A stretch of DNA of 64,000 nucleotides from Thermoplasmata archaeon (GCA_021162815.1 JAGGXW010000003.1:3542-67541), one strand, 5' to 3'. Shown: positions 7,773-33,787, numbered from the stretch's first letter. Translations and numbers: made by a program. Notes: generated by a model from the letters alone, not told the origin.

Positions 7773-8018
7773 TTACCTCCTTTTCTTCTTTATTTTTTCA
7801 TCAAGAAGCATCAGAAGCTCCTCTATTTCATCCTCGCTCACATAGCTCTCTCTCTGCTCCATTTTTATCTCAAATAATCTCAGTCTTATTGCCTCCTTGC
7901 ATAATTCAGCGACACTGGTATAACCCAGCTCGGGATTTTTTGTTATAAGCTTTTCAATTTCCTCGTGAAGCTCCTTCGGTATTGAAATGGTGCTGTACTT
8001 GAGTTTCTTCTCTTCCAT
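7773..8018 (-). CDS. Ribbon-helix-helix (CopG/Arc/MetJ-like) DNA-binding protein
   Basis: 81 aa. The N-terminus KYSTISIPKELHEEIEKL fits the RHH beta-strand and first helix. It is a clear paralog of the ORF at 8999..9226. Confidence 0.6.
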   Translation of the reverse strand: MEEKKLKYSTISIPKELHEEIEKLITKNPELGYTSVAELCKEAIRLRLFEIKMEQRESYVSEDEIEELLMLLDEKIKKKRR

Positions 8019-8065
8019 AAAGCCTAATGTATATATTGATATATTTATTTTACTATTGTTTTGAG
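8019..8065. promoter_or_regulatory. Bidirectional AT-rich promoter region with a palindromic TATA-like element between the RHH gene and the AGT-EndoV gene
   Basis: TGTATATATTGATATATTTATTTT lies about 25 to 35 nt upstream of the ATG at 8066, and on the other strand upstream of the ATG at 8018. This fits archaeal TATA spacing for leaderless transcripts. Confidence 0.3.
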
Positions 8066-8968
8066 ATGGGTGTTAATATTCCAGATTTATATGAAGAAAC
8101 TTACATGCTAACAAAGCAGATTCCGAGGGGCGAGGTATCAACCTACGGCGCAATAGCCAGGGCGCTGGGCGATGTGATTGCGGCCCGAGCAGTTGGAAAG
8201 ATGCTGCATGAGAATCCATATAAGGAGGTGCCATGCTATCGTGTCATTCATTCTGATGGCAGGGTTGGAGGCTATGCTGGAGGTGTGGAGAAGAAAATTG
8301 AGATGCTTAAAAGAGATGGAATTGAGATAATAAATGGAAAAATTGATCTGAACAAATACCTGTTTGATGATTTTGTTACGGACATGCCATTAAAGAGGCT
8401 GAGAGAGGAGCAGGTGAGGGTAGCATCCATGGTAAAGCAGGATGGAGAACTGGAATGGAAGATAATAGGGGGGATGGATGTTTCGTACGGCAACTACGCC
8501 CACGGAGCATATGTTGAGATGGACAGTAATGGCAGGATAATAAGAGGTTATACTGTTTCAATGAAGATAAGATTTCCCTATATTCCCACATATCTTGCAT
8601 TCAGAGAGCTTCCCGTTCTGGAGAGGCTGTATGAAAAGGCAGAGGCGGATATAATAATGGTGGATGGAAATGGTATTCTCCATCCCTTAATGGCGGGTCT
8701 TGCAAGCCATTTTGGTGTTGTTATGGATGTGCCAACCATAGGTGTTGCAAAGAAATTACTCCTCGGAGAGATTTTGAATGATAGCATCATATTTAATGGA
8801 AAGGTTGTTGGAAAAAAGGTTGGCAGGGTTTACATCTCTCCAGGACATAAAATTGGTGTTGAAAGTGCGGCAAAAATTGCAAAAAATTTTATGAAATACT
8901 CCATTCCAGAGCCAGTAAGGCAGGCTCACATTCTTGCCAATAAGGAGAGGAGAAAGAGAGAGGGATAA
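8066..8968 (+). CDS. nfi: Bifunctional O6-alkylguanine-DNA alkyltransferase (C-terminal AGT domain) fused to endonuclease V
   Basis: N-terminal ~90 aa show the AGT DNA-binding and active-site pattern (STYGAIARALG ... AARAVGKMLHENP ... VPCYRVI ... GGYAGG). The remainder carries EndoV motifs (GMDVSY, YIPTYLAFRELP, VDGNGILHP, GVAKK). The ORF track starts at 8027, but its first 13 aa read like translated promoter sequence, so the start used here is the ATG at 8066. Confidence 0.8.
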   Translation: MGVNIPDLYEETYMLTKQIPRGEVSTYGAIARALGDVIAARAVGKMLHENPYKEVPCYRVIHSDGRVGGYAGGVEKKIEMLKRDGIEIINGKIDLNKYLFDDFVTDMPLKRLREEQVRVASMVKQDGELEWKIIGGMDVSYGNYAHGAYVEMDSNGRIIRGYTVSMKIRFPYIPTYLAFRELPVLERLYEKAEADIIMVDGNGILHPLMAGLASHFGVVMDVPTIGVAKKLLLGEILNDSIIFNGKVVGKKVGRVYISPGHKIGVESAAKIAKNFMKYSIPEPVRQAHILANKERRKREG

Positions 8969-8980: not shown

Positions 8981-8998
8981 CCTCATGATTTAGTGAGC

Positions 8999-9226
8999 AT
9001 GGTAAAATACAGTACCGTCTCCATACCAAAAGAACTCCACGAGGAGATAAGAAGGACTGTTCTCGCTGACCCGAGGTTCAAATACAGGAGTGTGGCTGAA
9101 TTTTCTATAGAGGCCATACTTATAAGACTGGATGAAATAAGAAGAGAACTTGAAAAGGAGAAAAGAAATAGAAAAAAAAGACTGGCAAAAATTGTCCAGG
9201 ACATTAAAAAGGAGCTGAAGCTGTAG
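8999..9226 (+). CDS. Ribbon-helix-helix DNA-binding protein (paralog of 7773..8018), first gene of the ten-gene operon
   Basis: MVKYSTVSIPKELHEEIRR aligns with KYSTISIPKELHEEIEK of the other RHH gene. The ORF track opens at 8993 with a GTG, and the ATG at 8999 is more plausible. Confidence 0.6.
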   Translation: MVKYSTVSIPKELHEEIRRTVLADPRFKYRSVAEFSIEAILIRLDEIRRELEKEKRNRKKRLAKIVQDIKKELKL

Positions 9227-9271
9227 TAGAAAAGTTTATATATTTGTTGCTATATATGCAAAATGGTGATT

Positions 9272-9317
9272 TAATATGCCATGGGGTTATGGATTTGGTA
9301 GAGGATGGAGAATGGGA
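9272..9317 (+). repeat. Direct repeat, copy 1 (about 42 nt spanning RBS/start of micro-protein A)
   Basis: TAATATGCCATGGGGTTATGGATTTGGTAGAGGATGG recurs at 9489..9535 with one mismatch plus a 1-nt indel. Confidence 0.7.
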
Positions 9318-9491
9318 AGAGGAAGAGGATTTGGAGCCACACTTGGTTACTGTCCATATACAGGCTTACCAAGAGGCTGGAGATGGTTTATGCCTTATGG
9401 AAACGCAGGGGCGTATGGATACAGAGTGCCGTACACATACTACACACCTTATACACCATATTACAGGCCATACTATCCATGGTGGTGGTAA
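9276..9491 (+). CDS. Gly/Tyr/Trp-rich low-complexity micro-protein A (71 aa)
   Basis: MPWGYGFGRGWRMGRGRGFG ... YYRPYYPWWW. It shares its first 11 aa and about 42 nt with the next ORF, and its stop lies 2 nt before the next ATG. Confidence 0.45.
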   Translation: MPWGYGFGRGWRMGRGRGFGATLGYCPYTGLPRGWRWFMPYGNAGAYGYRVPYTYYTPYTPYYRPYYPWWW

Positions 9492-9535
9492 TAATGCCAT
9501 GGGGTTATGGATTTGGTAGAGGATGGGGAATGGGA
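9489..9535 (+). repeat. Direct repeat, copy 2
   Basis: See copy 1. Confidence 0.7.
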
Positions 9536-9706
9536 TGGCAGTACGGCATGCCATGGCAGCAGTATGGACAGTCATACATGCCTTATCAGCCATACCAGCC
9601 AAGTGTTGAGCAGGAACTTTATATGATTGAGCAGGAATTGAATGCCATAGAGGCAAATCTCGCAAACATAAAGAGAAGGCTTGAGGAGCTGAAAAGAAAT
9701 AAATAG
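9494..9706 (+). CDS. Gly/aromatic-rich micro-protein B with C-terminal coiled coil (DUF5320-like architecture)
   Basis: MPWGYGFGRGWGMGWQYGMPWQQYG ... followed by the heptad-like EQELYMIEQELNAIEANLANIKRRLEELKRNK. The ORF track merges it into the longer, implausible ORF at 9305. Confidence 0.5.
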   Translation: MPWGYGFGRGWGMGWQYGMPWQQYGQSYMPYQPYQPSVEQELYMIEQELNAIEANLANIKRRLEELKRNK

Positions 9707-9722
9707 GGATAGGGTTTAAGGG

Positions 9723-10229
9723 TTGATTAATATGAGAATACTTGTAGCGACAAATTCAGGTGGACTGGATGACATGGTATCATCGGTTTTTGCAAGAAGC
9801 CCCACATTTACTATAATAGAGGCTGATGGGCAGGAAATAAAGGATGTTAAGGTTATACCGAATCAGTTTGCAAACGCCGTACATGGAGCGGGAATACAGG
9901 CAGGCCAGTTTGTGGTGAGCCAGGGAATAGATGTGGCAGTTGCAGGCAATTTTGGGCCCAATGTTTCCTCCATACTTGCCCAGGCAGGGGTGAAGGCAAT
10001 TCCCGCCCAGGGAGTGGTGAAAGATGTCGTCAATGACATACTCTCTGGAAACATGCAGGCTCAATCATTGGCAACTCCAGCACCATCCTATCCTTCTCCG
10101 CAGCAGTATGCACCACCACCCTCCATAAATCCAGATGAAAAAATAGATGAGATGGAGGAGAAGATAGCAAGAATAGAGGCGATGATAAAGGAAATAAAGG
10201 ATATGCTGAAGCATCTCAGGGAGGAATAA
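9723..10229 (+). CDS. NifX/NafY-like dinitrogenase FeMo-cofactor family domain protein (PF02579-like) with Pro/Gln linker and coiled-coil tail
   Basis: MRILVATNSGGLDDMVSSVFARSPTFTIIE ... GAGIQAGQFVVSQGIDVAVAGNFGPNV ... AGVKAI fits the NifX-like fold. The C-terminus PQQYAPPPS ... EKIARIEAMIKEIKDMLKHLREE resembles the tail of micro-protein B. Confidence 0.75.
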   Translation: MINMRILVATNSGGLDDMVSSVFARSPTFTIIEADGQEIKDVKVIPNQFANAVHGAGIQAGQFVVSQGIDVAVAGNFGPNVSSILAQAGVKAIPAQGVVKDVVNDILSGNMQAQSLATPAPSYPSPQQYAPPPSINPDEKIDEMEEKIARIEAMIKEIKDMLKHLREE

Positions 10230-10230
10230 A

Positions 10231-10461
10231 ATGGCAATGGGCATGGGCAGAGGAGCAGGCGCAGGCAGCGGCAAAGGAAGAGGAGCCGGAGGCGGAGCAG
10301 GCGGCGGCTACGGCGGTAGAGGCAGAGGCGGAGGAAGAGGAGCAGGGCCAGGTGGAGAGTGCAGGTGCCCTGCTTGTGGCTATACCATGCCTCATCAGCC
10401 AGGTGTGCCATGCTTTCAGCTTACCTGCCCCAAGTGCGGGGCAAAGATGATAAGAGTTTAA
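10231..10461 (+). CDS. Gly/Arg-rich micro-protein with C-terminal C4 zinc ribbon
   Basis: GRGAGAGSGKGRGAGGGAGGGYGGRGRGGGRGAGPGG followed by CRCPAC ... CPKC, four Cys in ribbon spacing. Its ATG is 2 nt after the upstream stop, and its stop abuts the next ATG. Confidence 0.5.
   Translation: MAMGMGRGAGAGSGKGRGAGGGAGGGYGGRGRGGGRGAGPGGECRCPACGYTMPHQPGVPCFQLTCPKCGAKMIRV
10240..10355 (+). repeat. GC-rich (GGN)n simple-sequence tract inside the micro-protein gene
   Basis: About 115 nt of GGC/GGA/AGA/GCA repeats in an otherwise AT-rich window. Confidence 0.6.
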
Positions 10462-11298
10462 ATGATAATAGCTGTTGCAAGCGGAAAGGGGGGCACAGGC
10501 AAAACAACCGTTGCGACAAATCTGGCCATCTCCATAGGAAAAGCCCGCATACTTGATTGCGATGTTGAGGAGCCAAATGCCAACATTTTCCTTAAATTTG
10601 ACATGGAAAAGAAGGAGGATGTGAATGTTCTCATTCCATCCATAGATAAGCAGAAGTGCACACTCTGCGGGGATTGTGTGAATGCATGCAGATATAATGC
10701 CCTCGCAATGTTGCCAAAGGATATTCTTCTTTTTCCAGAGCTTTGCCATGGATGCGGGCTATGCAGCATGGTTTGCAAATATGATGCAATAACCGAGGTG
10801 CCGAGAAAGATAGGTGAGATACTATATGGAAAAAATGAGGAAATAGAACTGTATCAGGGTCTCCTCAACATTGGAGAGGCGATGGCAACACCCATAATAA
10901 AGGAGTTGAAGAAATATTCCAATGATATGACAATAATAGATGCTCCTCCAGGAAATGCATGCCCCACCATGGAGGCGATAATAGATTCAGATTTCGTCAT
11001 TCTTGTTACAGAGCCAACTCCATTTGGCCTTCATGATTTGAAGATTGCTGTAAGCATTGTGAGAAAATTTGGAATACCTTTTGGAGTGATAATAAACAAG
11101 TATGGAATAGGTGATGATGGAGTGGAAAAATACTGCGAGCAGGAGGGGATAAGGATTATGATGAAAATACCCCACAGCAGGGAAATAGCAAATCTTTACT
11201 CCAAGGGCATACCCTTCGTTGAAAAAATGGAGGGATGGAAGGAAAGATTTATTGAGCTTTATGAGGAGATAAAAAATGAAACAGGTGGCAATAGCTAG
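10462..11298 (+). CDS. MinD/ParA-family P-loop ATPase with inserted 2x[4Fe-4S] ferredoxin domain
   Basis: Deviant Walker A SGKGGTGKTT. Two ferredoxin-type Cys clusters (CTLCGDCVNAC and CHGCGLCSMVC) are inserted after the P-loop. Confidence 0.85.
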   Translation: MIIAVASGKGGTGKTTVATNLAISIGKARILDCDVEEPNANIFLKFDMEKKEDVNVLIPSIDKQKCTLCGDCVNACRYNALAMLPKDILLFPELCHGCGLCSMVCKYDAITEVPRKIGEILYGKNEEIELYQGLLNIGEAMATPIIKELKKYSNDMTIIDAPPGNACPTMEAIIDSDFVILVTEPTPFGLHDLKIAVSIVRKFGIPFGVIINKYGIGDDGVEKYCEQEGIRIMMKIPHSREIANLYSKGIPFVEKMEGWKERFIELYEEIKNETGGNS

Positions 11299-12133
11299 TG
11301 GAAAGGGTGGAACAGGAAAGACAACCCTCACTGCATCATTTGCATCTCTGGCAAAAGATAATACTGTATTTGCAGATTGCGATGTGGATGCATCAAATCT
11401 CCATTTAATTTTTGATCCCGTTGTTAAGGAAAAGGAGGATTTCTACGGCATGGAGCTGGCTGTTGTTGACAAGGAGAAATGCATAATGTGCATGGAGTGT
11501 AAGAAGGCATGCAGGTTCGATGCTATAACAGAGAATATTGACATAATAGCGGAGAGATGCGAGGGATGTGGTGTATGCGAATATGTATGCCCCGTCAAGG
11601 CAATAGAAATGAAGCCAAGGAAATCGGGAGAGGTTTTTGTCTCGGAATCAAGATTTGGATGGCTTGTTCATGCAAGGCTCAATATCGGTGAGGAAACAAG
11701 CGGGAAGCTGGTGGCGGCGGTGAGGAATAAAGCCAAAGAGGTGGCAGAGAAGAATGGTAAAGATATGATAATAATAGACGCTCCGCCAGGCGTTGGATGC
11801 CCCGTTATTGCTTCCATAAGTGGCGTTAATCTCGTTGTTATTGTTGTTGAACCCACGTCTGCTGCAATTCATGATATGAAGAGGGTTAAGGAGGTTGCAG
11901 ATCACTTTAAGGTGCCATGTGCTGTGTGCATAAATAAATATGATATAAATGAGGAGAAGGCAAAGGAGATTGAGGAGTATTGCAGGGAGAATGGAATTGA
12001 GATTGTTGGCAAGATTCCCTATGATACAGTTATCACAGATGCGATGGTGAATGGCAAGAGTGTTGTTGAATACAATAAGAAAGTGGCAAATATTATGAAA
12101 GATATATGGATAAATGTCAAAAATAAATTATAA
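11276..12133 (+). CDS. MinD/ParA-family P-loop ATPase with inserted 2x[4Fe-4S] ferredoxin domain (paralog)
   Basis: SGKGGTGKTT with CIMCMECKKAC and CEGCGVCEYVC. Overlaps the upstream gene by 23 nt. Confidence 0.85.
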   Translation: MKQVAIASGKGGTGKTTLTASFASLAKDNTVFADCDVDASNLHLIFDPVVKEKEDFYGMELAVVDKEKCIMCMECKKACRFDAITENIDIIAERCEGCGVCEYVCPVKAIEMKPRKSGEVFVSESRFGWLVHARLNIGEETSGKLVAAVRNKAKEVAEKNGKDMIIIDAPPGVGCPVIASISGVNLVVIVVEPTSAAIHDMKRVKEVADHFKVPCAVCINKYDINEEKAKEIEEYCRENGIEIVGKIPYDTVITDAMVNGKSVVEYNKKVANIMKDIWINVKNKL

Positions 12134-12620
12134 GGTGCTGAAAAGGATAAAGCTCGTGATTACAGTTATTATAATTGCTGGAGTTATAATTGACACCACC
12201 CTTGTTTACATGGCTGCAAGTTCTCTCAAAATAAATGGAGAGAGAATAAACGGAATATATCCTGAAAATGTTGTTAAGGGCTATTATGAGGTTAAATTTG
12301 AGTTGCAGATTGAAAATCCACAGGACAAGAGCATAGAGGTTGATTACATAAGTTACAACGTTTATATAAACAATGAATTTGTGGGAAAGGGAGCAAAACC
12401 TGCTTTTTCAATTCCTCACGGGGTGCATAACTACACATTCAGCTTGACATTCAACATTTACAATCTCTCTTCATCAACTTCTTCCATAATAATGAATCAG
12501 GGAAACGTGGATGTTAAAATTAAAGGGGATGTTATTGTTCCATTGAAATTTCTTGGCTTATTCACATGGAGGTATATAAAATTGCCATATGAGAAGACTG
12601 AGAATGTGAGAATAAAATGA
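12114..12620 (+). CDS. LEA14/WHy-like (LEA-2 family) membrane-anchored protein
   Basis: N-terminal TM helix followed by a beta-rich domain whose pattern (VKGYYEVKFELQIENPQDKSIEVDYISYNVYINN) is typical of LEA-2/NDR1-like folds. Overlaps the upstream gene. Confidence 0.45.
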   Translation: MSKINYKVLKRIKLVITVIIIAGVIIDTTLVYMAASSLKINGERINGIYPENVVKGYYEVKFELQIENPQDKSIEVDYISYNVYINNEFVGKGAKPAFSIPHGVHNYTFSLTFNIYNLSSSTSSIIMNQGNVDVKIKGDVIVPLKFLGLFTWRYIKLPYEKTENVRIK

Positions 12621-13846
12621 AAAAGGAATTGCTCAAAGCAGGATATAAAAGTGCGTTTTATGTTCTCATAGCCACTTTTGCCCTCTCCATATTCAAACTT
12701 GCTGCAGGTATAATCTCAAACACTCTTGTTGTGGTTGTTGATGGTATGCATTCAATGGTTGATATGGTTGTTCTGATGGTGGCATACATTGGAATAAGAA
12801 TATCATGCAAGGAACCTGATAGAAAATTTCAGTATGGGTATTACAAGGCGGAGAGCATAGCCTCTCTTTTCATTTCTTTATTCATTTTTATTGTTGCATT
12901 TAAATTCATGTACGAAGGCTATATGGCTCTTTTTAAAGAGCCTGAGAGCAAAATGCCATATCTTGCAATATTTGCAACAATCGTTTCCATAATCTCCTCA
13001 TATCTCATGTCTGTTTATCTTCTCAAAGCGGGAAAGAAAACAAAGATGCACTCCCTCATAGCCACATCAAATGAAAGAAAAATGGACATGCTTTCCTCCC
13101 TGATTGTCATTATTGCAATAGTGCTTGGTATGTACCACATAAGATATGTTGAGGGGATAATAACCATGGGCATAGCAGCAATAATACTGAAGACAGGCAT
13201 TCTGAGCTTAAGAGATGCCATAGCCTCTCTCATGGATGTGAGCCCGAGAGATGCTGAGGAGAGAGTAAGAAAAATACTGGAAAATGCCAGAATAAGAGGA
13301 TACAAGGATTTAAAGCTTAGAAAGGCAGGGCCCTTCATATTCGGAGAGGTGAAAATTCTGCTCGATGCATCAATGGATATCCAGTCAGCCCATGATATTG
13401 CAGATGAAATTGAAGAAAAGGTAAAGAAAATAGGGAATGTTGATGGTTTCATAACCCATATCGAGCCATATTCTGGAGATGAGGTTAAGATGGCAATACC
13501 TGTGGAGAAAAGAAGCGGTGATGCAAACATAAGCAGAATATTCGGAAGATCCAGATATTTCATGCTCGTTTATATTGATACAAAGAATAAGGGCATAAAG
13601 AAACTATTCTTTGAGGACAATCCCCATCACGCAAAGGAAAAGCACGCTGGATTGGCGGCCGCCAGCATGCTTGCGGAGACGGGCGTGAGGTGCGTGGTGG
13701 TGAATAAGATAGGGGAGATAGCGTATTATGCTTTGAAAAATAAGGGAATCAGGATTTTTGAGTATGATGGCAGGGCTCTGGAGGCTGTGGATGAGTATAT
13801 GAAAGGGAAGCTTAAGGTGTTGAAAGAGCCAAAGAAGGTGGAATGA
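12617..13846 (+). CDS. Cation diffusion facilitator (CDF) metal transporter fused to a C-terminal NifX-like (PF02579-like) domain
   Basis: Six TM helices with the CDF signature (VVDGMHSMVDM, HxxxD sites). These are followed by the usual cytoplasmic CDF C-terminal domain and then an extra ~100 aa (RIFGRSRYFMLVYIDTKNKGIKKLFFEDNP ... LAETGVRCVVVNKIGEIAYYALKNKGIRIFE) matching the NifX-like fold. Confidence 0.8.
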   Translation: MKKELLKAGYKSAFYVLIATFALSIFKLAAGIISNTLVVVVDGMHSMVDMVVLMVAYIGIRISCKEPDRKFQYGYYKAESIASLFISLFIFIVAFKFMYEGYMALFKEPESKMPYLAIFATIVSIISSYLMSVYLLKAGKKTKMHSLIATSNERKMDMLSSLIVIIAIVLGMYHIRYVEGIITMGIAAIILKTGILSLRDAIASLMDVSPRDAEERVRKILENARIRGYKDLKLRKAGPFIFGEVKILLDASMDIQSAHDIADEIEEKVKKIGNVDGFITHIEPYSGDEVKMAIPVEKRSGDANISRIFGRSRYFMLVYIDTKNKGIKKLFFEDNPHHAKEKHAGLAAASMLAETGVRCVVVNKIGEIAYYALKNKGIRIFEYDGRALEAVDEYMKGKLKVLKEPKKVE

Positions 13847-14427
13847 TGTCATATGAGGATTTTTATGCAACGGACTTCGGAAGGTTTGTTCTTATGAATG
13901 AGGCAGGATATGTGGCAAAGAAAATGCACGGTCTGTTGTTAAGTGTTGGATGCGGTACGGGTATAATAGAAAGGGAGATAGCAAAGGAGGGAAATGAAAT
14001 AATATGTCTTGAGCCATCTGAGGAGATGGTAAAGCTTGCCAGGAGCAGGGTTGAGGTGGTGGAGGGTTATGCAGAGAATATGCCTTTCAGAGATGGAATG
14101 TTTGATGGCGTGTTTTTCATAACCTCCCTCGAGTTTGTTAACGATTATAAGAAAGCCATTGAAGAAGCCCACAGGGTTCTCAAGGAAAATGGAGTGTTTC
14201 TTGCCATGATGCTCAATTTCTCATCCGATTACTTTGCAAGAGCCTATGAAAAGGAGGGCTACATAAGAAGAAATATAAAGCACATGAATAATGAAATGAT
14301 AAAGAAGCATGCTGAAGAATTTTTTGATACCCGGCATTCTCTCTTTCTTTGCGAGGATATGGGCAGTGAATGCGATGATAAAAACAAACTTCTTTATGTG
14401 GTGGAGGGAATAAAGCTCTTACCATGA
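13843..14427 (+). CDS. Class I SAM-dependent methyltransferase
   Basis: Motif I LSVGCGTGII and a post-I acidic residue, a Methyltransf_11-like pattern. ATGA overlap with the upstream gene. Confidence 0.75.
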   Translation: MMSYEDFYATDFGRFVLMNEAGYVAKKMHGLLLSVGCGTGIIEREIAKEGNEIICLEPSEEMVKLARSRVEVVEGYAENMPFRDGMFDGVFFITSLEFVNDYKKAIEEAHRVLKENGVFLAMMLNFSSDYFARAYEKEGYIRRNIKHMNNEMIKKHAEEFFDTRHSLFLCEDMGSECDDKNKLLYVVEGIKLLP

Positions 14428-14844
14428 TTTTAACCTTTCCAGAATTATGGAGGGATTTATTTCCAGCACTCCCTCCATGCTCTTTATTTTATCAAGCAAT
14501 CTGTTCATCTCCCTGCTATCCTTTGCCCATATATCGGCCATTATCATATGTCCTCCCGATGTTATCGCCACACATTTAACATTTTCCATCTCCGTAAGCC
14601 TGCATGCGATTTTCAGAAATGCATTTGTATCTGTATTTATGCCCACATGAGCCACTATTTTGTATCCAATTTTTTCAGGATTTATCTTAAGTGTGTATCC
14701 CTCTATTATTCCATTTTCCTCCAGTTTCTTTATTCTCTTCCTCACCGCCGTCTCGGATATACCCAGCCTTCTGGCTATCTTTATGTAAGGCGTCCTTGCA
14801 TTCTTTGAAAGCATTTCCAGTATTATTTCATCCTTTTCGTCCAT
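14419..14844 (-). CDS. Lrp/AsnC-family transcriptional regulator
   Basis: N-terminal HTH (ILEMLSKNARTPYIKIARRLGISETAVRKRIKKLEENGII) and a C-terminal RAM domain. Confidence 0.85.
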   Translation of the reverse strand: MDEKDEIILEMLSKNARTPYIKIARRLGISETAVRKRIKKLEENGIIEGYTLKINPEKIGYKIVAHVGINTDTNAFLKIACRLTEMENVKCVAITSGGHMIMADIWAKDSREMNRLLDKIKSMEGVLEINPSIILERLKSW

Positions 14845-21975: not shown

Positions 21976-22432
21976 ACTGCTTGGAAAAGGGGAAGAGATG
22001 AATGGCAGGGCTTATGTGAAGATTGATAAAAGCGAGCTGGAAGAGGCGATTAAAACACTCAAGGAAAATGGTTACAATCATTTTGTCATGCTTTCATGTA
22101 TAGACTGGCTTGATGATGGAGAGTTTGAGTTAGTTTATCATCTATGGAGTTATGAGGAGAGAGAGCATGTTATGTTATCTGTTAGGGTGGCAAGAGATGG
22201 AGAGAGCATGCCATCCATGCATGAACTTTTCCCCCAAATAGAAACCTATGAGAGAGAGATACATGAAATGTATGGAATCAAATTTGAGGGCAATCCCAGA
22301 CTTACGCCTTTCTTCTTAGAGGGGTGGCGTGATATGCCCCCCATGAGGAAGGATTTTGATTCAAGAAAGTTCACCAAGGATGTGTTTGGAAACATATCCA
22401 CCATAGAGGAGGAAGAAGATGAAGGAATATGA
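21962..22432 (+). CDS. NuoC-like subunit (MbsK-like)
   Basis: 156 aa with the NuoC/30-kDa subunit pattern. Overlaps its neighbours. Confidence 0.7.
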   Translation: MKAIELLGKGEEMNGRAYVKIDKSELEEAIKTLKENGYNHFVMLSCIDWLDDGEFELVYHLWSYEEREHVMLSVRVARDGESMPSMHELFPQIETYEREIHEMYGIKFEGNPRLTPFFLEGWRDMPPMRKDFDSRKFTKDVFGNISTIEEEEDEGI

Positions 22433-23546
22433 ATTGTTTATAGGTCCGCAGCATCCTGGAATAACAGGAAACATGATGTATCATTTATGGGCAGAGGGAG
22501 ATACTGTTGTGAAGGCAGAGTGCAATGTCGGCTATCTCCACCGCGGATTTGAGAAATTGATGGAATCCCGTCTATGGATGCAGAATATCCCGCTTGTATG
22601 CAGAATATGCGTCCCCGAGCCAGATGTAAATGAAGCAGCATATTCTATGGCTGTTGAACAACTCATGGACTGGGAGGTGCCTGAGAGGGCAAGGTACATA
22701 AGAACCATTGTTCTGGAACTGGCGAGAATATCTGCATATCTCATGGCAATAGGGGGATATGCTGGCAGTATAGGAATTTACACACTCCCGCAGTGGATGA
22801 CAGGGGATAGAGATTACATACTTGACATATTTGAACAACTCACAGGGGCAAGAGTGTATCATATTTACATATGGCCTGGTGGTGTAAGATGGGATATGCC
22901 GGACAATTTGCCAGGTTTAATAGAAAGAACACTCAATTATATTGAGAAGAGGCTTGAACTTTATGATGATGTTCTTTTCAGAAACAGGATTTTCTTTGAT
23001 AGAGCCGTTGGCATTGGGAAAATTCCAAAAGAAAAGGCAATAGAATGGGGAGTTAGCGGTCCAAATCTGAGGGCATGTGGCTATGGATATGATGTGAGGA
23101 AACTCGAGCCTTATGCAGCTTATGATGAAATTGATTTTGATGTGGTTAAATATCCAGAACTCGGTAAATTTGAAGCTTTGTCAGATGGATGTGATGTGTA
23201 TACCAGAATGATAATAAGGAGACTTGAAATAGAGCAGAGCATAGACATAGTAAGGCAGGCCCTCAAAAAAATGCCTGAAGGGGATATCCTGCTCAAACAT
23301 CCAAACTGGCTGCGCTGGAAGGTGCCGGCAGGCTACGCATTTGCCAGAGTGGAGAGCAGCAAGGGAGAGTATGGTTATTTTGTTGTGAGTGATGGTGGTT
23401 TGAAACCTGTGAGGGTTCATGTTAGGGGCCCGAGCTATACGCATGGAATTAATGTTGCTGAAAGAATATTGAAGGGGGCAAATATAGCGGATGTATCCCA
23501 GATATTGTTCAGCCTTGATATTTGTCCACCGGATATAGAGAGGTGA
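22419..23546 (+). CDS. NuoD-like large subunit lacking the complete [NiFe] ligand set (Mbx/Mbs-L-like, not a hydrogenase)
   Basis: LHRGFEKL and an N-terminal CxxC (VCRIC) are present. The C-terminus ends DICPPDIER, with a single Cys where [NiFe] hydrogenases have DPCxxCxxH. Confidence 0.8.
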   Translation: MKEYELFIGPQHPGITGNMMYHLWAEGDTVVKAECNVGYLHRGFEKLMESRLWMQNIPLVCRICVPEPDVNEAAYSMAVEQLMDWEVPERARYIRTIVLELARISAYLMAIGGYAGSIGIYTLPQWMTGDRDYILDIFEQLTGARVYHIYIWPGGVRWDMPDNLPGLIERTLNYIEKRLELYDDVLFRNRIFFDRAVGIGKIPKEKAIEWGVSGPNLRACGYGYDVRKLEPYAAYDEIDFDVVKYPELGKFEALSDGCDVYTRMIIRRLEIEQSIDIVRQALKKMPEGDILLKHPNWLRWKVPAGYAFARVESSKGEYGYFVVSDGGLKPVRVHVRGPSYTHGINVAERILKGANIADVSQILFSLDICPPDIER

Positions 23547-29342: not shown

Positions 29343-30725
29343 TTAATCACCTTTCATCACAGAACTTGCCATCTTTATAGCGCTGGGAATCGCCCTTCTG
29401 AATATGAAGCCCTTTCTTAAGATTAAATCTTTGATGAGATACAACGGGCGTATGTAGAAGGATATATATGCTTTCTGCAACAGTTTTGTTATTTGCTGGG
29501 AGGTGAAGTTTTTGAGTTTCATCACAGGATCCAAGGTTGTGTATTTTCTCCAGTTGAAACTCAGTATGAGGTTTTTCGATAAAGAATAATTCCACAATCT
29601 TGTTCCGGGATAGGGAGTGGCTATAGTGAACTGTGCATAATCCACTCCCACCCTTTTTGAAAATTTAATGGTTTTCTTTATATCTTTCTTTGTTTCATCA
29701 GGGAATCCAATAATGAATGCTCCTAAAGCACGGAGTTTATATTTTTTTGCTTTCTTAACTGCAGCAAGCGATTGCTCCGGTGTTATTCTTTTACCTATAA
29801 AATCCAGAGTACGTTTAGAACCGGATTCAATGCCAAAATACACGGTATGACATCCACCCCTTTTAAGAGATTGGGCAATTTCTTCATTAAAAAGATCAAC
29901 TCTGGAAGAGGCTGTCCACGAAATATCAAGTCCTTCCTCCACAATTCTTTTTGTTATCCTTATCGCTCTTGGTCTGTTAAGAGTAAAGGTATCATCTAAA
30001 AACTCTATTTCATGAATCCTGTATTTTTCATGAAGGTATTTCAATTCTTCAATTACCCTTGAATCGCTGTGCCCGCGCCACCTCTTTCCAAATTGAAGAG
30101 AAGAAGAGCAGAATGCGCAATTAAACGGGCATCCTCTGCTCGTCATTACAGTTCCAAATCTGACTCCATCTACCTGATATTTTTCCATTGGAAGTAAATC
30201 GTAGGAGGGCATGGGAATTGTATCAACATCCTTTATAAGAGGGCGCGGAGGATTATTCTTTATTTTACCGCCCATATTTATGCTTAACCCCAAAATATTT
30301 GAGACATCTCTATTTTTTTCTAAGGCATCAATAAGCTGTTTGAATGTTATTTCTCCTTCTCCCCTCACTATAAAATCTATGCATGGACATTCTTTGAATG
30401 TTTTTTCGGGAACAAATGTTACATGCGGTCCTCCTATTACGATTTTCACATTTTCATTATGTTTTTTTGCCATTTTTGCGACAGTATATGCATCAGGAAT
30501 CATGGATGTGGTTGAGGTGATACCAATAACATCGGGGTCATAACTCCTTATTATTCTATCAACATCCTCGTATGTATAATCTTCTGCCAGAGAATCAACT
30601 ATGTGAATATCATGTCCATCTCTCACCATGGAAGCCAGATATGCCAAACCGAGAGGTGGACCTGTTGTTCCGACAATTGCTTTAATTGCACTTATAGTTG
30701 GGGGAGAGAGTAGCAGAATTTTCAT
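29343..30725 (-). CDS. B12-binding domain / radical SAM protein (class B radical SAM)
   Basis: N-terminal cobalamin-binding Rossmann-like domain and the radical SAM motif RGCPFNCAFCSS. Confidence 0.8.
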   Translation of the reverse strand: MKILLLSPPTISAIKAIVGTTGPPLGLAYLASMVRDGHDIHIVDSLAEDYTYEDVDRIIRSYDPDVIGITSTTSMIPDAYTVAKMAKKHNENVKIVIGGPHVTFVPEKTFKECPCIDFIVRGEGEITFKQLIDALEKNRDVSNILGLSINMGGKIKNNPPRPLIKDVDTIPMPSYDLLPMEKYQVDGVRFGTVMTSRGCPFNCAFCSSSLQFGKRWRGHSDSRVIEELKYLHEKYRIHEIEFLDDTFTLNRPRAIRITKRIVEEGLDISWTASSRVDLFNEEIAQSLKRGGCHTVYFGIESGSKRTLDFIGKRITPEQSLAAVKKAKKYKLRALGAFIIGFPDETKKDIKKTIKFSKRVGVDYAQFTIATPYPGTRLWNYSLSKNLILSFNWRKYTTLDPVMKLKNFTSQQITKLLQKAYISFYIRPLYLIKDLILRKGFIFRRAIPSAIKMASSVMKGD

Positions 30726-32309: not shown

Positions 32310-33787
32310 TTATCTGGAAGAGTTTGAGTTATCTTTTTCCACTCTTTTTCCATTATTATACATCCCGGATCTGGAGAAAGAATATCTCCGTAATAGGCAT
32401 ATGCCCTTGCCCTGCATCCTCCGCAAACATATCTGAATGAGCAGGTGTGGCACGCGTAATTTTCTGCATCTCTGTCTCTCAATTTGTTGAATACTTCACT
32501 GTTTTTCCATACATTTGTAAATCCATCTTTTAGAACATTACCTACTTTTATTGGAAGGAATACACACGGTTGGATATCTCCATTATGCTCTATTGAACAG
32601 TAAATTCTTCCTGCTCCGCATCCTCCAATGAATTCTGTTAAAGCCTTGGCGGCGCCACCAAATTCTGCAGGTATTTCCATTTCAGCAAAATGAGTTGGTG
32701 ATACCTTATCTCCTGTGCCTTTATCCATTGCAGTTATTGATATTCTTGCATATGCAGGACATGTGGAAAAAATCTGCATTTTTCCTTTTTCCCATTCATC
32801 ATATAAATACTTCATAAGTTTTTCTCTTTCAATGGGGCTGAGATCTTCTTTCACTATCTCCTTTCCTCTCCCGGTTGGTATGAAATTGAAAACAATAAAT
32901 CTATCCACCATTAACTTTCTGGCAAGCTCTATCATTTCTGGGAGGATATCCAGATTATAGTGAGTTATGGTGGTGGCTATACCTGTGGATAAACCGGCAT
33001 CTCTTGCATTTTTTATACCCCTTACTGCCCTCTCAAATGCATTCTTAACTCCTCTAAACTCATCATGAATTTCAGAATTCGGGCCATCCAAGCTAACTTC
33101 AACATATCTTATTCCAGTCTCCTTCAATCTTTTTGCAATATTCTCTGTTATCAGTGTCCCATTTGTCGCAATCGAAATATAAAATCCTTTTGAAGCGGCG
33201 TATTCTGCAACTTTCCAGAAATCTTTATTCATCAACGGCTCTCCTCCTGAGAAAGATATTGCTGCCACACCTGCCTCATCCAGTTGGTCAACAACATTTA
33301 ATTTTTCTTCTAAAGTAAGTTCATCAGGTGCCGGATATGGCGTTGCATTGGCGTAGCAATGCTTGCATTTGAGATTGCATTGCTTTGTAAAATCCCATAC
33401 AACCATAAAAGGGGCAATTAATCTCTGGGGTTTTGTAATCCCGTATTCGGCAATACTCCTTATTACTACTGCAAAACCTTTTCTCATATAGGGATCTTTA
33501 AGAAATTTTTTAATTGCATCTGGTTCTGCACCAAATTTTTCAGCACCTTTTTCAAGTGTACTTCCTACAATCTTGGCATGAAGACCTTCTCTAACATCTT
33601 CTGGCTCTTCAACACCTGCATATATCGCAAATGATTTCTCCAATTTTTTCACTTCGGTCATTTTTTTCAGAATGAAATTTATAAATTTATGATCCATAAT
33701 TTTGTGGAGATATTCTATGATCTCCCCTTCATTCATGTTATTTTTCATGTTATTTTTCTCACTCATTGCTACCCACCTCTTCATCAA
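32306..33787 (-). CDS. Radical SAM protein with C-terminal SPASM/twitch-type auxiliary cluster domain
   Basis: CNLKCKHC (Cx3Cx2C) about 130 aa from the N-terminus. C-terminal Cys-rich region CGAGRIYCS ... CHTCSFRYVCGGCRARAY. Confidence 0.8.
   Translation of the reverse strand: MMKRWVAMSEKNNMKNNMNEGEIIEYLHKIMDHKFINFILKKMTEVKKLEKSFAIYAGVEEPEDVREGLHAKIVGSTLEKGAEKFGAEPDAIKKFLKDPYMRKGFAVVIRSIAEYGITKPQRLIAPFMVVWDFTKQCNLKCKHCYANATPYPAPDELTLEEKLNVVDQLDEAGVAAISFSGGEPLMNKDFWKVAEYAASKGFYISIATNGTLITENIAKRLKETGIRYVEVSLDGPNSEIHDEFRGVKNAFERAVRGIKNARDAGLSTGIATTITHYNLDILPEMIELARKLMVDRFIVFNFIPTGRGKEIVKEDLSPIEREKLMKYLYDEWEKGKMQIFSTCPAYARISITAMDKGTGDKVSPTHFAEMEIPAEFGGAAKALTEFIGGCGAGRIYCSIEHNGDIQPCVFLPIKVGNVLKDGFTNVWKNSEVFNKLRDRDAENYACHTCSFRYVCGGCRARAYAYYGDILSPDPGCIIMEKEWKKITQTLPDK

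What the first reader, a model, noticed from the sequence alone, without database searches (positions are those of the whole stretch)
12617..13846. CDF metal transporter carrying an extra C-terminal NifX-like cofactor-binding domain
The protein has a complete CDF architecture, six TM helices plus the canonical cytoplasmic C-terminal domain. It then continues for about 100 aa with a fold pattern (RIFGRSRYFMLVYID ... GVRCVVVNKIGEIAYYALKNKGIRIFE) matching the stand-alone NifX-like protein at 9723..10229 in the same operon.

NifX-family domains bind FeMo-co-like metalloclusters or act as small cluster carriers. Fusion to a CDF exporter would couple cluster or metal delivery to membrane transport. 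I do not recognise this architecture as described.
Basis: partly seen in the sequence, partly recalled or inferred. Interest (0 to 1): 0.65.

Follow-up and report, generated by a model that had tools for sequence, protein, structure and literature searches.

The report
Metal exporter fused to iron-sulfur-binding domain
This archaeal gene really does encode a metal-efflux transporter with an extra cytoplasmic domain of the NifX/IssA type; the fusion is old, is found in several hundred uncultivated archaea and bacteria, almost always sits beside iron-sulfur-handling genes, and was not described in any paper I could search.

Summary
Confirmed. ORF 12617-13846 (+) is one uninterrupted 409-aa gene: Cation_efflux (aa 14-206), ZT_dimer (212-285) and Nitro_FeMo-Co/PF02579 (303-395, 55.8 bits against a cutoff of 26.3). 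It is not an artefact. All 120 listed homologues and all 80 retrieved genome loci have the same three-domain protein. A CTD+tail profile finds 167 representatives at E<=1e-30 among 1.84 billion.

The tail is not a nitrogenase NifX. It belongs to the MTH1175/TM1816/PH0822/ORP branch, which a published cladogram treats as IssA-type. It has no conserved cysteine (FGRA where stand-alone neighbours have FGRC) and is strongly basic (pI about 9.6). In 11 of 81 homologues it is followed by an IssA-like Arg/Gly/Trp tail. The fused domains form one clade, which suggests a single old fusion.

The gene is part of a conserved same-strand module: two MinD-ferredoxin ATPases (Orp3/Orp4-like), a stand-alone NifX-like protein, a Gly/Arg-rich zinc ribbon and DUF5320. 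At least one partner is present in 30 of 37 loci with enough flank.

Best reading, inferred rather than shown: a FieF/MamB-like Fe2+ (or other divalent metal)/H+ exporter whose extra domain receives or senses an anionic Fe-S species, or docks the ORP-like complex. I rate it a new variant of a known kind, undescribed in the literature searched.

The parts
12617..13846 (+). Whole fused gene, 409 aa: CDF transporter plus a NifX-like (PF02579) C-terminal domain
   Evidence: Intact ORF. Three Pfam domains above threshold. An identical protein is called in NCBI assembly GCA_053989895.1.
12617..13234 (+). Transmembrane domain, aa 1-206: six helices, with transport site A = H45, D49 (TM2), E153, D157 (TM5)
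   Evidence: Cation_efflux 14-206. Six helices in the AF2 model. Alignment to Shewanella YiiP maps H45/D49/E153/D157 onto D47/D51/H155/D159. Conservation in 62 family members: H45 in 50, D49 in 62, E153 in 54, D157 in 44 with H in 18.
13250..13471 (+). Canonical cytoplasmic C-terminal domain (ZT_dimer), aa 212-285. It retains H259, H281 and E283, which are equivalent to YiiP H261/H283/D285.
   Evidence: PF16916 E 2.7e-13. Alpha-beta-beta-alpha-beta in DSSP. Residue mapping and conservation.
13475..13846 (+). Extra NifX-like domain, aa 287-409, of the MTH1175/IssA/ORP type. It is basic (pI 9.5, net +7), lacks a conserved Cys and is joined to the CTD by a linker of only about 5 residues. The range includes the stop codon.
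   Evidence: PF02579 E 6e-15. PDB sequence hits to TM1816, MTH1175, PH0822, TM1290 and ORP. Domain model pLDDT 94.6. Foldseek TM 0.75-0.79 to ORP, TM1816 and PH0822. Charge. Conserved F309-G310-R311, F315, N335, A344-G345, G366.
9276..9491 (+). Small Gly/Arg/Trp/Tyr/Pro-rich protein (71 aa, MPWGYGFGRGWRMGRGRGFG...), first gene of the operon. A TATA-like TTTATATA lies at 9235-9242 and GGTGA at 9265-9269 upstream.
   Evidence: Translation and sequence. The promoter assignment is inference from the sequence.
9494..9706 (+). DUF5320 small protein (70 aa). It has the same MPWGYGFGRGW N-terminus as the first gene, followed by a predicted coiled coil.
   Evidence: The PF17253 match lies in this part of the longer ORF. 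DUF5320 homologues lie near the fused gene in 7 of 37 full-flank loci.
9723..10229 (+). Stand-alone NifX-like protein: PF02579 domain plus a Pro/Gln-rich linker and a coiled-coil tail. The likely true start is the ATG at 9732.
   Evidence: PF02579 E 2.4e-15. Gene call of 165 aa. A homologue is present on the same strand within 6 kb in 28 of 37 full-flank loci.
10231..10461 (+). Zinc-ribbon protein with a Gly/Arg-rich N-terminal tail
   Evidence: Translation. Weak Zn_ribbon matches. A homologue is present in 28 of 37 full-flank loci.
10462..11298 (+). MinD/ParA-type P-loop ATPase with an inserted 2x[4Fe-4S] ferredoxin domain (Orp3/Orp4-like), copy A
   Evidence: CbiA/ParA plus Fer4 families. 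Deviant Walker A GKGGTGKT in the translation. Orp3/Orp4 description in PMC6345978.
11276..12133 (+). MinD/ParA-type P-loop ATPase with an inserted ferredoxin domain, copy B. It overlaps copy A by 23 nt.
   Evidence: Both ATPases are present in 26 of 37 full-flank loci.
12114..12620 (+). LEA_2-domain protein with an N-terminal hydrophobic anchor. It is lineage-specific, found only in the close Thermoplasmata relatives.
   Evidence: PF03168 E 1e-6. Present only in L004-L006 among the loci.
13843..14427 (+). Class I SAM methyltransferase, last gene of the operon (lineage-specific). It converges on the Lrp/AsnC regulator gene at 14419-14844 (-).
   Evidence: Methyltransf_11 E 1e-22. Present in 8 of 80 loci.

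Best explanation
The gene encodes a homodimeric, FieF/MamB-like cation diffusion facilitator: a proton-coupled exporter of a divalent metal, most likely Fe2+, with Zn2+, Co2+ and Cd2+ not excluded. Its regulatory cytoplasmic domain is extended, through a linker of about 5 residues, by a third domain of the non-nitrogenase NifX superfamily (MTH1175/IssA/ORP type).

That domain is cysteine-free and strongly cationic. The most likely role is as the cytoplasmic receptor of the transporter. It would bind an anionic inorganic iron-sulfur species (thioferrate-like or cluster-like), and/or dock onto the ORP-like Fe-S machinery encoded in the same operon: two MinD-ferredoxin ATPases, a Cys-bearing stand-alone NifX-like protein and Gly/Arg-rich small proteins. 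Because it hangs directly below the CTD metal site (H259/H281/E283), its occupancy would be passed to the CTD dimer that gates transport. The effect would be to tie the cell's Fe-S storage and trafficking pool to metal efflux.

Shown here: the architecture, its conservation, the single origin of the fusion, the sub-family of the domain, its charge and lack of Cys, and the conserved gene neighbourhood.

Inferred: the transported metal, the ligand of the extra domain, and the coupling mechanism.
For: Architecture.

Conservation: all 120 listed homologues have the three domains. All 80 best genome loci, out of 295 species-level hits, are fused in one ORF. There are 167 representatives at E<=1e-30, and most of the 150 listed match CTD plus tail contiguously.

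Single origin: 81 of 81 fused domains form one clade apart from 65 neighbouring stand-alone NifX-like proteins. The initiator Met of the stand-alone proteins aligns to fused position 290.

Retained functional core: F309-G310-R311, F315, N335, A344-G345 and G366 are shared by the fused and stand-alone groups. N335 and G366 are 100% conserved in both.

IssA-like properties: the best sequence relatives are MTH1175, TM1816 and PH0822. Vaccaro 2017 places MTH1175 in the IssA clade and shows that the IPR003731 domain alone binds Fe and S (PMC5524996). Median pI is 9.6 and net charge +7, against 6.3 and 0 for the stand-alone neighbours. Eleven of 81 homologues add an acidic linker and an Arg/Gly/Trp tail with an RRGPWW motif, like the IssA tail.

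Fe-S context: at least one partner gene lies on the same strand within 6 kb in 30 of 37 full-flank loci, and both ATPases in 26 of 37. [quoted passage not shown]

Metal: the closest named CDF models are MamM, FieF and MamB (124-127 bits), ahead of ZitB (53) and DmeF (40). Site A has one His plus three carboxylates, the same ligand set as YiiP's DD-HD.
Against: No experiment exists on any member of the family.

All named CDF equivalog models score far below their cutoffs. The HD-ED site-A quartet occurs in a bacterial clade assigned to Zn and other metals, and site A alone does not fix selectivity (PMC5703985).

The domain lacks the Cys that most of its stand-alone neighbours have. The window protein has no IssA-type tail, and it departs from the family consensus at several fused-specific positions (H343, Y371, N375, F381).

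High pI could simply reflect closeness to the membrane.

Seven of the 37 full-flank loci have no partner gene nearby.

The relative placement of the domains in the monomer model is uncertain (pTM 0.60).

It is not obvious why an exporter would need an Fe-S receptor.
Confidence: 0.4

Rival explanations
1. The extra domain is only a structural or allosteric add-on. It would act as a second dimerisation or metal-sensing module that clamps the two CTDs, binding free metal ions or nothing. It would have kept the NifX fold but lost cluster binding. The transporter would then be an ordinary metal-detoxification CDF.
For: The fused clade has replaced the FGRC cysteine of its stand-alone neighbours with alanine, and 51 of 81 domains have no Cys at all. 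It has gained its own conserved polar residues (E367, H371, D375, Y381), which could form a simple metal site or an interface. The isolated Di-Nase domain of MrpORP is a dimer (PMC6345978). The linker of about 5 residues places the domain directly under the CTD dimer tip.
Against: The family-wide core motif (FGR, N335, AG345, G366) is kept at 90-100% across a very divergent set, which argues for a retained ligand site. This explanation does not account for the conserved co-location with Fe-S ATPases and a stand-alone NifX-like protein. It also does not account for the IssA-like cationic tails on 11 homologues.
Confidence: 0.25
2. The protein is mainly the membrane subunit of an ORP-type complex. 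The NifX-like domain would be the docking module that recruits the MinD-ferredoxin ATPases and small proteins to the membrane. The cargo could be a heterometallic thiometallate (Mo/W-S-Cu type, as in the Desulfovibrio orange protein) or its metal component, rather than iron.
For: The best fold match of the domain is the orange protein ORP itself (2wfb, TM 0.79). The operon has the ORP-complex composition of two Orp3/Orp4-like ATPases plus PF02579 proteins. Orp3/Orp4 carry MinD-like membrane-targeting helices, and MrpORP localises to the cell pole (PMC6345978).
Against: CDFs transport divalent cations, not oxo- or thio-anions, and site A is a standard His/carboxylate cation site. ORP is only the sixth-ranked relative by sequence (E 1e-8 against 5e-22 for MTH1175). 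No Mo or W uptake or cofactor genes were seen in the window.
Confidence: 0.15
3. The domain is a true nitrogenase-cofactor carrier (NifX/NafY-like) that binds FeMo-co or NifB-co, and it links cofactor biosynthesis to Mo or Fe transport.
For: The Pfam family name, and a shared fold with NafY (1p90, TM 0.67) and NifX (9ian_F, TM 0.65).
Against: The family profile does not hit NafY, NifX or NifB sequences even at E<=1. No nif genes occur in the 64-kb window or in the conserved neighbourhood. Many of the organisms are DPANN archaea and Patescibacteria, which to my knowledge have small genomes and are not known to fix nitrogen.
Confidence: 0.02
4. The fusion is an assembly or annotation artefact that joins two adjacent genes.
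For: Stand-alone NifX-like genes often lie directly next to the CDF gene in related loci. In the window, an SD-like GAGGT lies 4 nt before an internal ATG (M292) at the junction.
Against: The reading frame is continuous, with no stop. The same single ORF is found in 80 of 80 independent loci from different assemblies and in most of the 167 representatives. The fused domains form their own clade, distinct from the adjacent stand-alone genes.
Confidence: 0.01

Closest known systems
YiiP/FieF (E. coli, Shewanella oneidensis): CDF family, TC 2.A.4
   Same: Best solved-structure relatives of aa 1-285 (E 1e-21; Foldseek TM up to 0.78 on the target). They share six TM helices, a site A on TM2/TM5 with one His plus three carboxylates, and an alpha-beta-beta-alpha-beta CTD with the H261/H283/D285-equivalent ligands conserved.
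   Different: About 24% identity, and below the FieF equivalog cutoffs (124 against 420 bits). Site A is HD-ED instead of DD-HD. The site-B histidines are absent, and two of the CTD site-C histidines are Lys. No solved CDF has a third cytoplasmic domain: all PDB alignments in the top 50 end near residue 290.
MamM / MamB magnetosome CDFs
   Same: The highest-scoring named CDF models (127 and 124 bits). These are Fe2+-handling CDFs that work within a dedicated iron-biomineral machinery. In Desulfovibrio magneticus that machinery also includes FmpB, a protein carrying a NifX/NifB domain (PMC4287615).
   Different: Scores are far below the equivalog cutoffs of 350. There are no other magnetosome genes. 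In magnetotactic bacteria the NifX domain is on a different protein, not on the CDF.
IssA (Pyrococcus furiosus PF2025), the thioferrate iron-sulfur storage protein
   Same: The same IPR003731 globular domain of the non-Nif branch; MTH1175, a top hit here, was the modelling template for IssA and lies in its clade (PMC5524996). High pI. No cysteine is needed in the globular domain. Eleven of 81 family members carry a C-terminal Arg/Gly/Trp tail of IssA-like character. The operon also encodes separate Gly/Arg/Trp-rich small proteins.
   Different: IssA is a soluble 179-aa protein that forms nanoparticles; here the domain is tethered to a membrane transporter. The window protein itself has no cationic tail. 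Thioferrate binding is untested.
ORP (orange protein) complex of Desulfovibrio: Orp3/Orp4, Orp8 (ORP), Orp9 (MrpORP)
   Same: The same building blocks are clustered: two paralogous MinD-like ATPases with 2x[4Fe-4S] motifs plus PF02579 proteins (PMC6345978). ORP is the best fold match of the tail. MrpORP is a precedent for fusing this domain to another Fe-S-related protein, and there the fused domain binds a [3Fe-4S] cluster.
   Different: In the ORP papers I could read, no transporter is listed among the five ORP-complex proteins. The MrpORP Di-Nase domain uses the Cys/His motifs CXHFGHCE and CDH, which are absent here (FGRS in the window, FGRA in the family). The P-loop/Di-Nase fusion arose many times, whereas the CDF fusion arose once.
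NifX / NafY / NifB C-terminal domain (nitrogenase cofactor carriers)
   Same: The same Pfam family (PF02579) and the same alpha/beta fold (1p90 TM 0.67, 9ian_F TM 0.65).
   Different: No sequence-level match even with a family profile. There is no nif context. The host lineages include DPANN archaea and Patescibacteria, which to my knowledge are not known to fix nitrogen.

Membership tests
Cation diffusion facilitator family (PF01545 / TIGR01297) | Sequence match to the family models above the curated cutoffs | tested here: met
   PF01545 145 bits against a cutoff of 26.6. TIGR01297 198.7 bits against 82.35.
Cation diffusion facilitator family (PF01545 / TIGR01297) | Six transmembrane helices with a four-residue site A on TM2 and TM5 | tested here: met
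   Six long helices in the AF2 model. H45/D49/E153/D157 align to YiiP D47/D51/H155/D159 and are conserved.
Cation diffusion facilitator family (PF01545 / TIGR01297) | Cytoplasmic alpha-beta-beta-alpha-beta C-terminal domain (ZT_dimer) | tested here: met
   PF16916 50.2 bits against a cutoff of 26.7. DSSP shows H211-222, E228-237, E240-249, H255-270, E275-284.
Cation diffusion facilitator family (PF01545 / TIGR01297) | Homodimeric metal/proton antiport activity | not testable with these tools
   Needs biochemistry. The monomer model says nothing about the dimer.
FieF / MamM / MamB / MntE / ZitB / DmeF equivalogs (NCBIfam) | Score above the equivalog cutoff, which is what would transfer a named metal specificity | tested here: not met
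   MamM 127.5 against 350; FieF 123.9 against 420; MamB 123.9 against 350; MntE 95.6 against 500; ZitB 53.4 against 408; DmeF 40 against 250.
PF02579 / IPR003731 (NifX-NafY-NifB-C / 'Di-Nase' superfamily) | Sequence match above the Pfam gathering score | tested here: met
   55.8 bits against 26.3, aa 303-395, covering 91 of 94 profile positions.
PF02579 / IPR003731 (NifX-NafY-NifB-C / 'Di-Nase' superfamily) | The family's alpha/beta fold | tested here: met
   Domain model pLDDT 94.6. Foldseek E 4.5e-10 to 1.5e-6 and TM 0.71-0.79 to ORP, TM1816, PH0822, MJ0327, TM1290, Ta1041 and MTH1175.
Nitrogenase cofactor carriers proper (NifX IPR013480, NafY IPR031763) | Sequence membership of the NifX/NafY clades and a nif gene context | tested here: not met
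   The profile of the fused domain gives no NafY, NifX or NifB hit at E<=1. No nif genes are in the window.
Nitrogenase cofactor carriers proper (NifX IPR013480, NafY IPR031763) | Binding of FeMo-co / NifB-co | not testable with these tools
   Requires biochemistry.
IssA-type iron-sulfur storage proteins (Vaccaro 2017) | IPR003731 domain of the IssA/MTH1175 branch | tested here: inconclusive
   The best relatives are MTH1175, TM1816 and PH0822, and MTH1175 is placed in the IssA clade by PMC5524996. The IssA sequence itself was not available, so no tree including it was built.
IssA-type iron-sulfur storage proteins (Vaccaro 2017) | High isoelectric point | tested here: met
   The window domain has pI 9.47 and net charge +7. 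The family median is 9.57, and 79% exceed 8.5.
IssA-type iron-sulfur storage proteins (Vaccaro 2017) | Unstructured cationic Gly/Arg/aromatic C-terminal tail | tested here: not met
   The window protein ends ...LKEPKKVE, directly after the domain. The feature is present in 11 of 81 family members, so it is met in part of the family but not in this protein.
IssA-type iron-sulfur storage proteins (Vaccaro 2017) | Thioferrate / Fe-S binding and nanoparticle formation | not testable with these tools
   Requires anaerobic biochemistry and spectroscopy.
ORP (orange protein) complex gene cluster | Two paralogous MinD-like ATPases with two [4Fe-4S] ferredoxin motifs (Orp3/Orp4) | tested here: met
   10462-11298 and 11276-12133 both match CbiA/ParA plus Fer4 families. 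They are conserved next to the fused gene in 26 of 37 loci. The Orp3/Orp4 description comes from PMC6345978; no direct alignment to DVU2103/2104 was possible.
ORP (orange protein) complex gene cluster | Single-domain PF02579 protein(s) in the cluster | tested here: met
   9723-10229. Present in 28 of 37 loci.
ORP (orange protein) complex gene cluster | MrpORP (Mrp/NBP35 P-loop plus Di-Nase fusion, CXXC motif) | tested here: not met
   Only weak partial matches to NF041136 (at most 50.6 bits against a cutoff of 450). No such gene lies in the operon.

The most novel reading that the evidence does not exclude
The CDF-NifX fusion would be the membrane component of a previously unrecognised iron-sulfur mineral or cluster handling machine in anaerobic archaea and ultra-small bacteria. 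The machine would comprise the transporter, IssA-like NifX proteins, Gly/Arg/Trp-rich polycation proteins and two MinD-ferredoxin ATPases. It would nucleate, store or dispose of thioferrate-like Fe-S material at the membrane. It would be functionally analogous to the MamB/MamM-centred magnetosome machinery, and it would finally give a function to the long-enigmatic ORP complex and to the non-nif NifX-like proteins.
Probability: 0.15. Interest if true: 0.8.

Novelty: new variant of a known kind. Interest (0 to 1): 0.6.

Why it matters
Three sets of proteins have lacked a firm physiological role for about two decades:
- the non-nitrogenase NifX-like proteins (MTH1175, TM1816, PH0822 and others, all solved by structural genomics);
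- the anaerobe-specific ORP complex;
- IssA-type Fe-S storage outside Pyrococcus.

A conserved fusion that arose once, joining such a domain to a divalent-metal exporter inside an ORP-like operon, is 'Rosetta stone' evidence. It suggests that this machinery is connected to metal (probably iron) flux across the membrane.

It also adds a new kind of cytoplasmic regulatory or receptor domain to the CDF family. Until now, known CDF regulation has involved only the CTD and His-rich loops.

The family is concentrated in DPANN archaea, Thermoplasmata and Patescibacteria, which to my knowledge have reduced genomes. Its retention there suggests an important role in sulfidic, iron-rich anoxic habitats. 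The hypothesis is directly testable with one recombinant protein and a deletion of the last 120 residues.

Tried and rejected
- **Frameshift or artefact.** Rejected: the ORF is continuous and 80 of 80 independent loci are fused.

- **Long tblastn spans.** Spans of about 1,700 nt looked like inserts or split genes. ORF analysis showed they are the fused gene plus an adjacent stand-alone NifX-like gene.

- **Recent duplication of the operon's stand-alone NifX gene as the source of the tail.** Rejected: only 23% identity, and the fused domains form their own clade.

- **Nitrogenase role.** Rejected.

- **Metal assignment from site A alone.** Abandoned after PMC5703985 showed that HD-ED occurs in a multi-metal clade and that site A is not decisive.

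- **Profile search with the tail alone through the word-indexed database.** It returned only five short proteins, at least two of them fragments of the fused family, and was uninformative about other architectures.

- **Literature.** Fievet 2011, the original ORP-complex paper, is not held. Searches for CDF+NifX, PF01545+PF02579, CDF+iron-molybdenum cofactor and IPR003731+cation efflux found no description of the fusion. The only near miss is an ANME-2a network paper that lists a CDF gene beside 4Fe-4S, NifX and P-loop genes and speculates about nickel and F430, without noting any fusion.

- **Domain packing.** I drew no conclusion from the full-length monomer model (pTM 0.60).

- **Taxon labels.** Labels such as 'Gammaproteobacteria', 'Pseudomonadales' and 'Actinomycetota' on some co-assembled MAG contigs were not verified and should not be relied on.
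Full report
**1.
The window contains an uninterrupted 409-codon ORF at exactly 12617-13846 on the + strand. Its start overlaps the stop of the upstream gene by 4 nt, and its stop overlaps the start of the downstream gene by 4 nt.

Pfam finds three domains, all above their gathering scores:
- Cation_efflux, aa 14-206, E 3e-42
- ZT_dimer, aa 212-285, E 2.7e-13
- Nitro_FeMo-Co (PF02579), aa 303-395, E 6e-15, 55.8 bits against a cutoff of 26.3

NCBIfam's CDF superfamily model scores 198.7 bits. An AlphaFold2 model built on 62 homologues (pLDDT 86) shows six long helices, an alpha-beta-beta-alpha-beta CTD and, after about five linker residues, a separate alpha/beta domain.

Both are PF02579.

**2. 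The fusion is real, old and recurrent in nature.**
An identical protein is called on NCBI contig JBMXDA010000086.1 of assembly GCA_053989895.1. A 100% identical aIF5B from the window is labelled Thermoplasmata archaeon.

- Among 277 homologues at E<=1e-10, all 120 listed, down to about 34% identity, carry the same three Pfam domains in proteins of 404-504 aa.
- A scan of one genome per species found 295 genomes with a relative. The best 80 all match query residues from about 1 to 407. ORF analysis shows a single fused ORF in 80 of 80.
- A profile of only the CTD plus the tail, searched against 1.84 billion representative proteins, gives 167 hits at E<=1e-30. Most of the 150 listed match the whole profile in one contiguous stretch; the rest are shorter matches on truncated metagenomic genes.

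The source labels include Thermoplasmata, Aenigmatarchaeota, Woesearchaeota, Micrarchaeota, Iainarchaeota, Bathyarchaeota, Methanomassiliicoccales, 'Methanosarcinales', and Patescibacteria (Nealson-, Portnoy-, Saccharibacteria). A few other bacterial labels on co-assembled MAGs were not verified.

**3. What kind of NifX-like domain it is.**
By sequence, the tail and its family profile hit only the small structural-genomics proteins: MTH1175 (5e-22), TM1816 (2e-21), TM1290, PH0822, MJ0327, the Desulfovibrio orange protein ORP (1e-8) and Ta1041. NafY, NifX and NifB are not hit even at E<=1.

A domain-only model (pLDDT 94.6) superposes on ORP, TM1816, PH0822, MJ0327, Ta1041 and MTH1175 at TM 0.71-0.79. 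It superposes on NafY (1p90) and NifX (9ian_F) at 0.67 and 0.65. Nothing below those is meaningful. The fold membership is therefore secure, but the domain lies outside the nitrogenase carrier clades. The window has no nif genes.

In an NJ tree of 81 fused domains and 65 stand-alone NifX-like proteins encoded next to them, all fused domains form one exclusive clade. Mean distances are 0.55 within the fused group and 0.80 between the groups. The initiator Met of the stand-alone proteins aligns to fused position 290. This fits a single head-to-tail gene fusion.

Both groups share a core: F309-G310-R311, F315, N335, A344-G345, G366, L373 and L399, with N335 and G366 at 100% in both. That argues for a retained site rather than just a retained fold.

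The groups differ in three ways:
- The stand-alone neighbours have FGRC (Cys in 81%). The fused clade has FGRA (88%), as in MTH1175 and TM1816, and 51 of 81 fused domains have no Cys at all.
- The fused clade has its own conserved positions: P295, R/K343, T362, E367, I368, H371, D375 and Y381.
- The fused domains are strongly basic (median pI 9.57, net +7), against 6.30 and 0 for the neighbours. In the window the values are 9.47 and 4.75.

Eleven of the 81 fused proteins continue past the domain with an acidic linker and an Arg/Gly/Trp tail, with a recurring RRGPWW motif.

These features match the published description of IssA, the Pyrococcus thioferrate storage protein. IssA has an IPR003731 domain of the MTH1175 branch, a high pI, and a cationic Gly/Arg/aromatic tail. 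Its globular domain alone binds Fe and S (PMC5524996).

**4. The transporter part.**
The best solved relatives are Shewanella and E. coli YiiP/FieF (E 1e-21; Foldseek). Among the top 50 PDB structural matches, no CDF aligns beyond about residue 290.

- *Site A.* The alignment maps site A to H45 and D49 on TM2 and E153 and D157 on TM5. In 62 family members D49 is invariant; position 45 is H in 50 and D in 8; position 153 is E in 54 and D in 8; position 157 is D in 44 and H in 18.
- *Other sites.* The site-B histidines of YiiP are absent. In the CTD, H259, H281 and E283 (equivalent to YiiP H261, H283 and D285) are conserved, while the other two site-C histidines are Lys.
- *Named models.* The closest named CDF models are MamM, FieF and MamB (124-127 bits), then MntE (96), ZitB (53) and DmeF (40). 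All are far below their equivalog cutoffs.
- *Published context.* The HD-ED quartet is known in one bacterial clade assigned to Zn and other metals, and site A alone does not determine selectivity (PMC5703985).

I therefore treat Fe2+ as the most likely substrate, based on context and on nearest named relatives. This is not established.

**5. The neighbourhood is the strongest functional clue.**
In the window the gene is the eighth of nine tightly packed or overlapping same-strand genes, 9276-14427:
1. A small Gly/Arg/Trp/Tyr-rich protein (9276-9491).
2. A second small protein with the same N-terminus; this one is the DUF5320 match (9494-9706).
3. A stand-alone NifX-like protein with a Pro/Gln-rich linker and a coiled coil.
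4. A zinc ribbon with a Gly/Arg-rich N-terminus.
5. A MinD/ParA ATPase with an inserted 2x[4Fe-4S] ferredoxin domain.
6. A second ATPase of the same kind.
7. A membrane-anchored LEA_2 protein.
8. The CDF fusion.
9. A methyltransferase.

A TATA-like TTTATATA at 9235-9242 precedes the first gene (inference).

Thirty-seven related loci have at least 3 kb on both sides. Counting genes on the same strand within 6 kb:
- a stand-alone NifX-like gene in 28;
- at least one MinD-ferredoxin ATPase in 29, and both in 26;
- the zinc ribbon in 28;
- DUF5320 in 7;
- at least one of the stand-alone NifX-like gene, an ATPase or the zinc ribbon in 30, and none of them in 7.

LEA_2 and the methyltransferase are confined to the close Thermoplasmata relatives.

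This composition matches the building blocks of the Desulfovibrio ORP complex. Orp3 and Orp4 are paralogous MinD-like ATPases with two [4Fe-4S] motifs; ORP (Orp8) is a PF02579 protein; and MrpORP carries a fused PF02579 'Di-Nase' domain that binds a [3Fe-4S] cluster and dimerises (PMC6345978).

An ANME-2a genome paper lists the same neighbourhood (a CDF next to 4Fe-4S, NifX and P-loop genes) without noting any fusion, and speculates about nickel (PMC12622379).

**6. Most likely mechanism (inferred).**
The protein is a FieF/MamB-like divalent-metal/proton exporter. Its gating CTD is rigidly extended by a cationic, cysteine-free NifX/IssA-type domain.

That domain most plausibly binds an anionic inorganic Fe-S species non-covalently, as IssA and ORP bind their inorganic ligands. 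Alternatively, or in addition, it docks the ORP-like ATPase and NifX machinery.

The domain begins five residues after the conserved H281-x-E283-P284 of the CTD metal site. Isolated Di-Nase domains dimerise. Its occupancy could therefore be passed on to the CTD dimer that controls the transport cycle. The outcome would be to couple the Fe-S storage and trafficking pool to metal efflux. I put this at about 0.4.

The rivals are:
- a purely structural or allosteric add-on (0.25);
- a membrane anchor for an ORP-type complex handling a heterometallic thiometallate (0.15);
- a true nitrogenase cofactor carrier (0.02);
- an artefact (0.01).

**7. Caveats.**
- Nothing has been tested experimentally in any member of the family.
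- The window protein lacks the IssA-like tail. It also departs from the family consensus at several fused-specific positions (H343, Y371, N375, F381).
- High pI could reflect closeness to the membrane.
- Seven of 37 loci lack nearby partner genes.
- Domain packing in the monomer model is unreliable (pTM 0.60).

**8. Novelty.**
None of my literature searches found a description of a CDF carrying this domain. Database entries are named only 'cation diffusion facilitator family transporter' or 'hypothetical'. The components are known families, and fusions of the Di-Nase domain to other Fe-S proteins are known (MrpORP, NifB). I therefore class this as a new variant of a known kind, with moderate to high interest (0.6). 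It gives a testable link between two enigmatic systems (ORP and the non-nif NifX-like proteins, and IssA-type storage) and membrane metal transport.

**9. Context seen in passing.**
Immediately downstream, and divergent from an Lrp/AsnC regulator gene, lies a 13-gene Mrp-type respiratory module with two antiporter-like subunits. Its catalytic subunit lacks the NiFe cysteine motifs and scores as NuoD-like, so the module is MBX/MBS-like rather than a hydrogenase. In Pyrococcus, the sulfane reductase MBS and IssA are both induced by elemental sulfur (abstract of PMC8219758). This adjacency is suggestive for this lineage only and is not used as evidence.

Noticed in passing
window 9276-9491 and 9494-9706 (+): Two tandem small genes (71 and 70 aa) both begin MPWGYGFGRGW and are rich in Gly, Arg, Trp, Tyr and Pro. 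The second carries the DUF5320 coiled coil. The public record instead calls one 133-aa ORF (9305-9706), which appears to merge an out-of-frame stretch of gene 1 with gene 2. Their composition resembles the thioferrate-binding tail of IssA.
   Followed up: partly
window 10231-10461 (+): A 76-aa zinc-ribbon protein with an N-terminal GRGAGAGSGKGRGAGGGAGGGYGGRGRGGGRGAG tract. Homologues lie beside the fused CDF gene in 28 of 37 full-flank loci, sometimes fused to a longer N-terminal part. No Pfam family reaches its threshold.
   Followed up: partly
loci L008, L009, L010, L016, L017, L021, L027, L028, L030, L033, L057 (C-termini of the fused CDF genes): Eleven of 81 family members extend beyond the NifX-like domain with an acidic linker followed by an Arg/Gly/Trp tail (for example ...RGWGRRGWWWRGRGPWWRR). 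This reproduces the IssA domain-plus-cationic-tail layout on a membrane transporter.
   Followed up: partly
window 13475-13492 (+): Exactly at the CTD/NifX junction, GGAGA and GAGGT (Shine-Dalgarno-like) lie 4-10 nt upstream of an in-frame ATG (M292). This could be a relic of the ancestral intergenic region, or it could allow separate translation of the tail. Met at this position is not conserved in the family (1 of 62).
   Followed up: no
window 14905-~24000 (+): A 13-gene Mrp/Mbh-type membrane complex (MnhE, MrpF, MnhG, MbhD, MbhE, two Proton_antipo_M subunits, NuoH/B/C/D-like subunits, ferredoxin). Its catalytic subunit (22419-23546) lacks the N-terminal RxCGxC and C-terminal DPCxxC NiFe motifs (it ends DICPPDIER) and passes the NuoD equivalog cutoff. 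It is MBX/MBS-like or Nuo-like, not a hydrogenase.
   Followed up: partly
window 8027-8968 (+): Endonuclease V fused to an N-terminal O6-methylguanine-DNA methyltransferase DNA-binding domain (PF01035 plus PF04493).
   Followed up: no
window 7773-8018 (-) and 8993-9226 (+): Two paralogous ribbon-helix-helix-like small proteins (shared motif KYSTxSIPKELHEEI) flank the EndoV gene. The second ends 50 nt before the operon's first gene and could be its regulator. There is no Pfam or NCBIfam match.
   Followed up: no
window 29343-36812: Three consecutive radical-SAM genes on the minus strand (a B12-binding rSAM, an rSAM, and an rSAM-SPASM). They are followed on the plus strand by a LuxE-like acyl-protein synthetase and a transglutaminase-like protein. 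This may be a peptide or cofactor modification cluster.
   Followed up: no
loci L002-L081 (stand-alone NifX-like genes next to the fused gene): The stand-alone neighbours carry a conserved Cys in the FGRC motif (81%), while the window's own stand-alone protein has FARS. The window lineage may therefore have lost that Cys.
   Followed up: no
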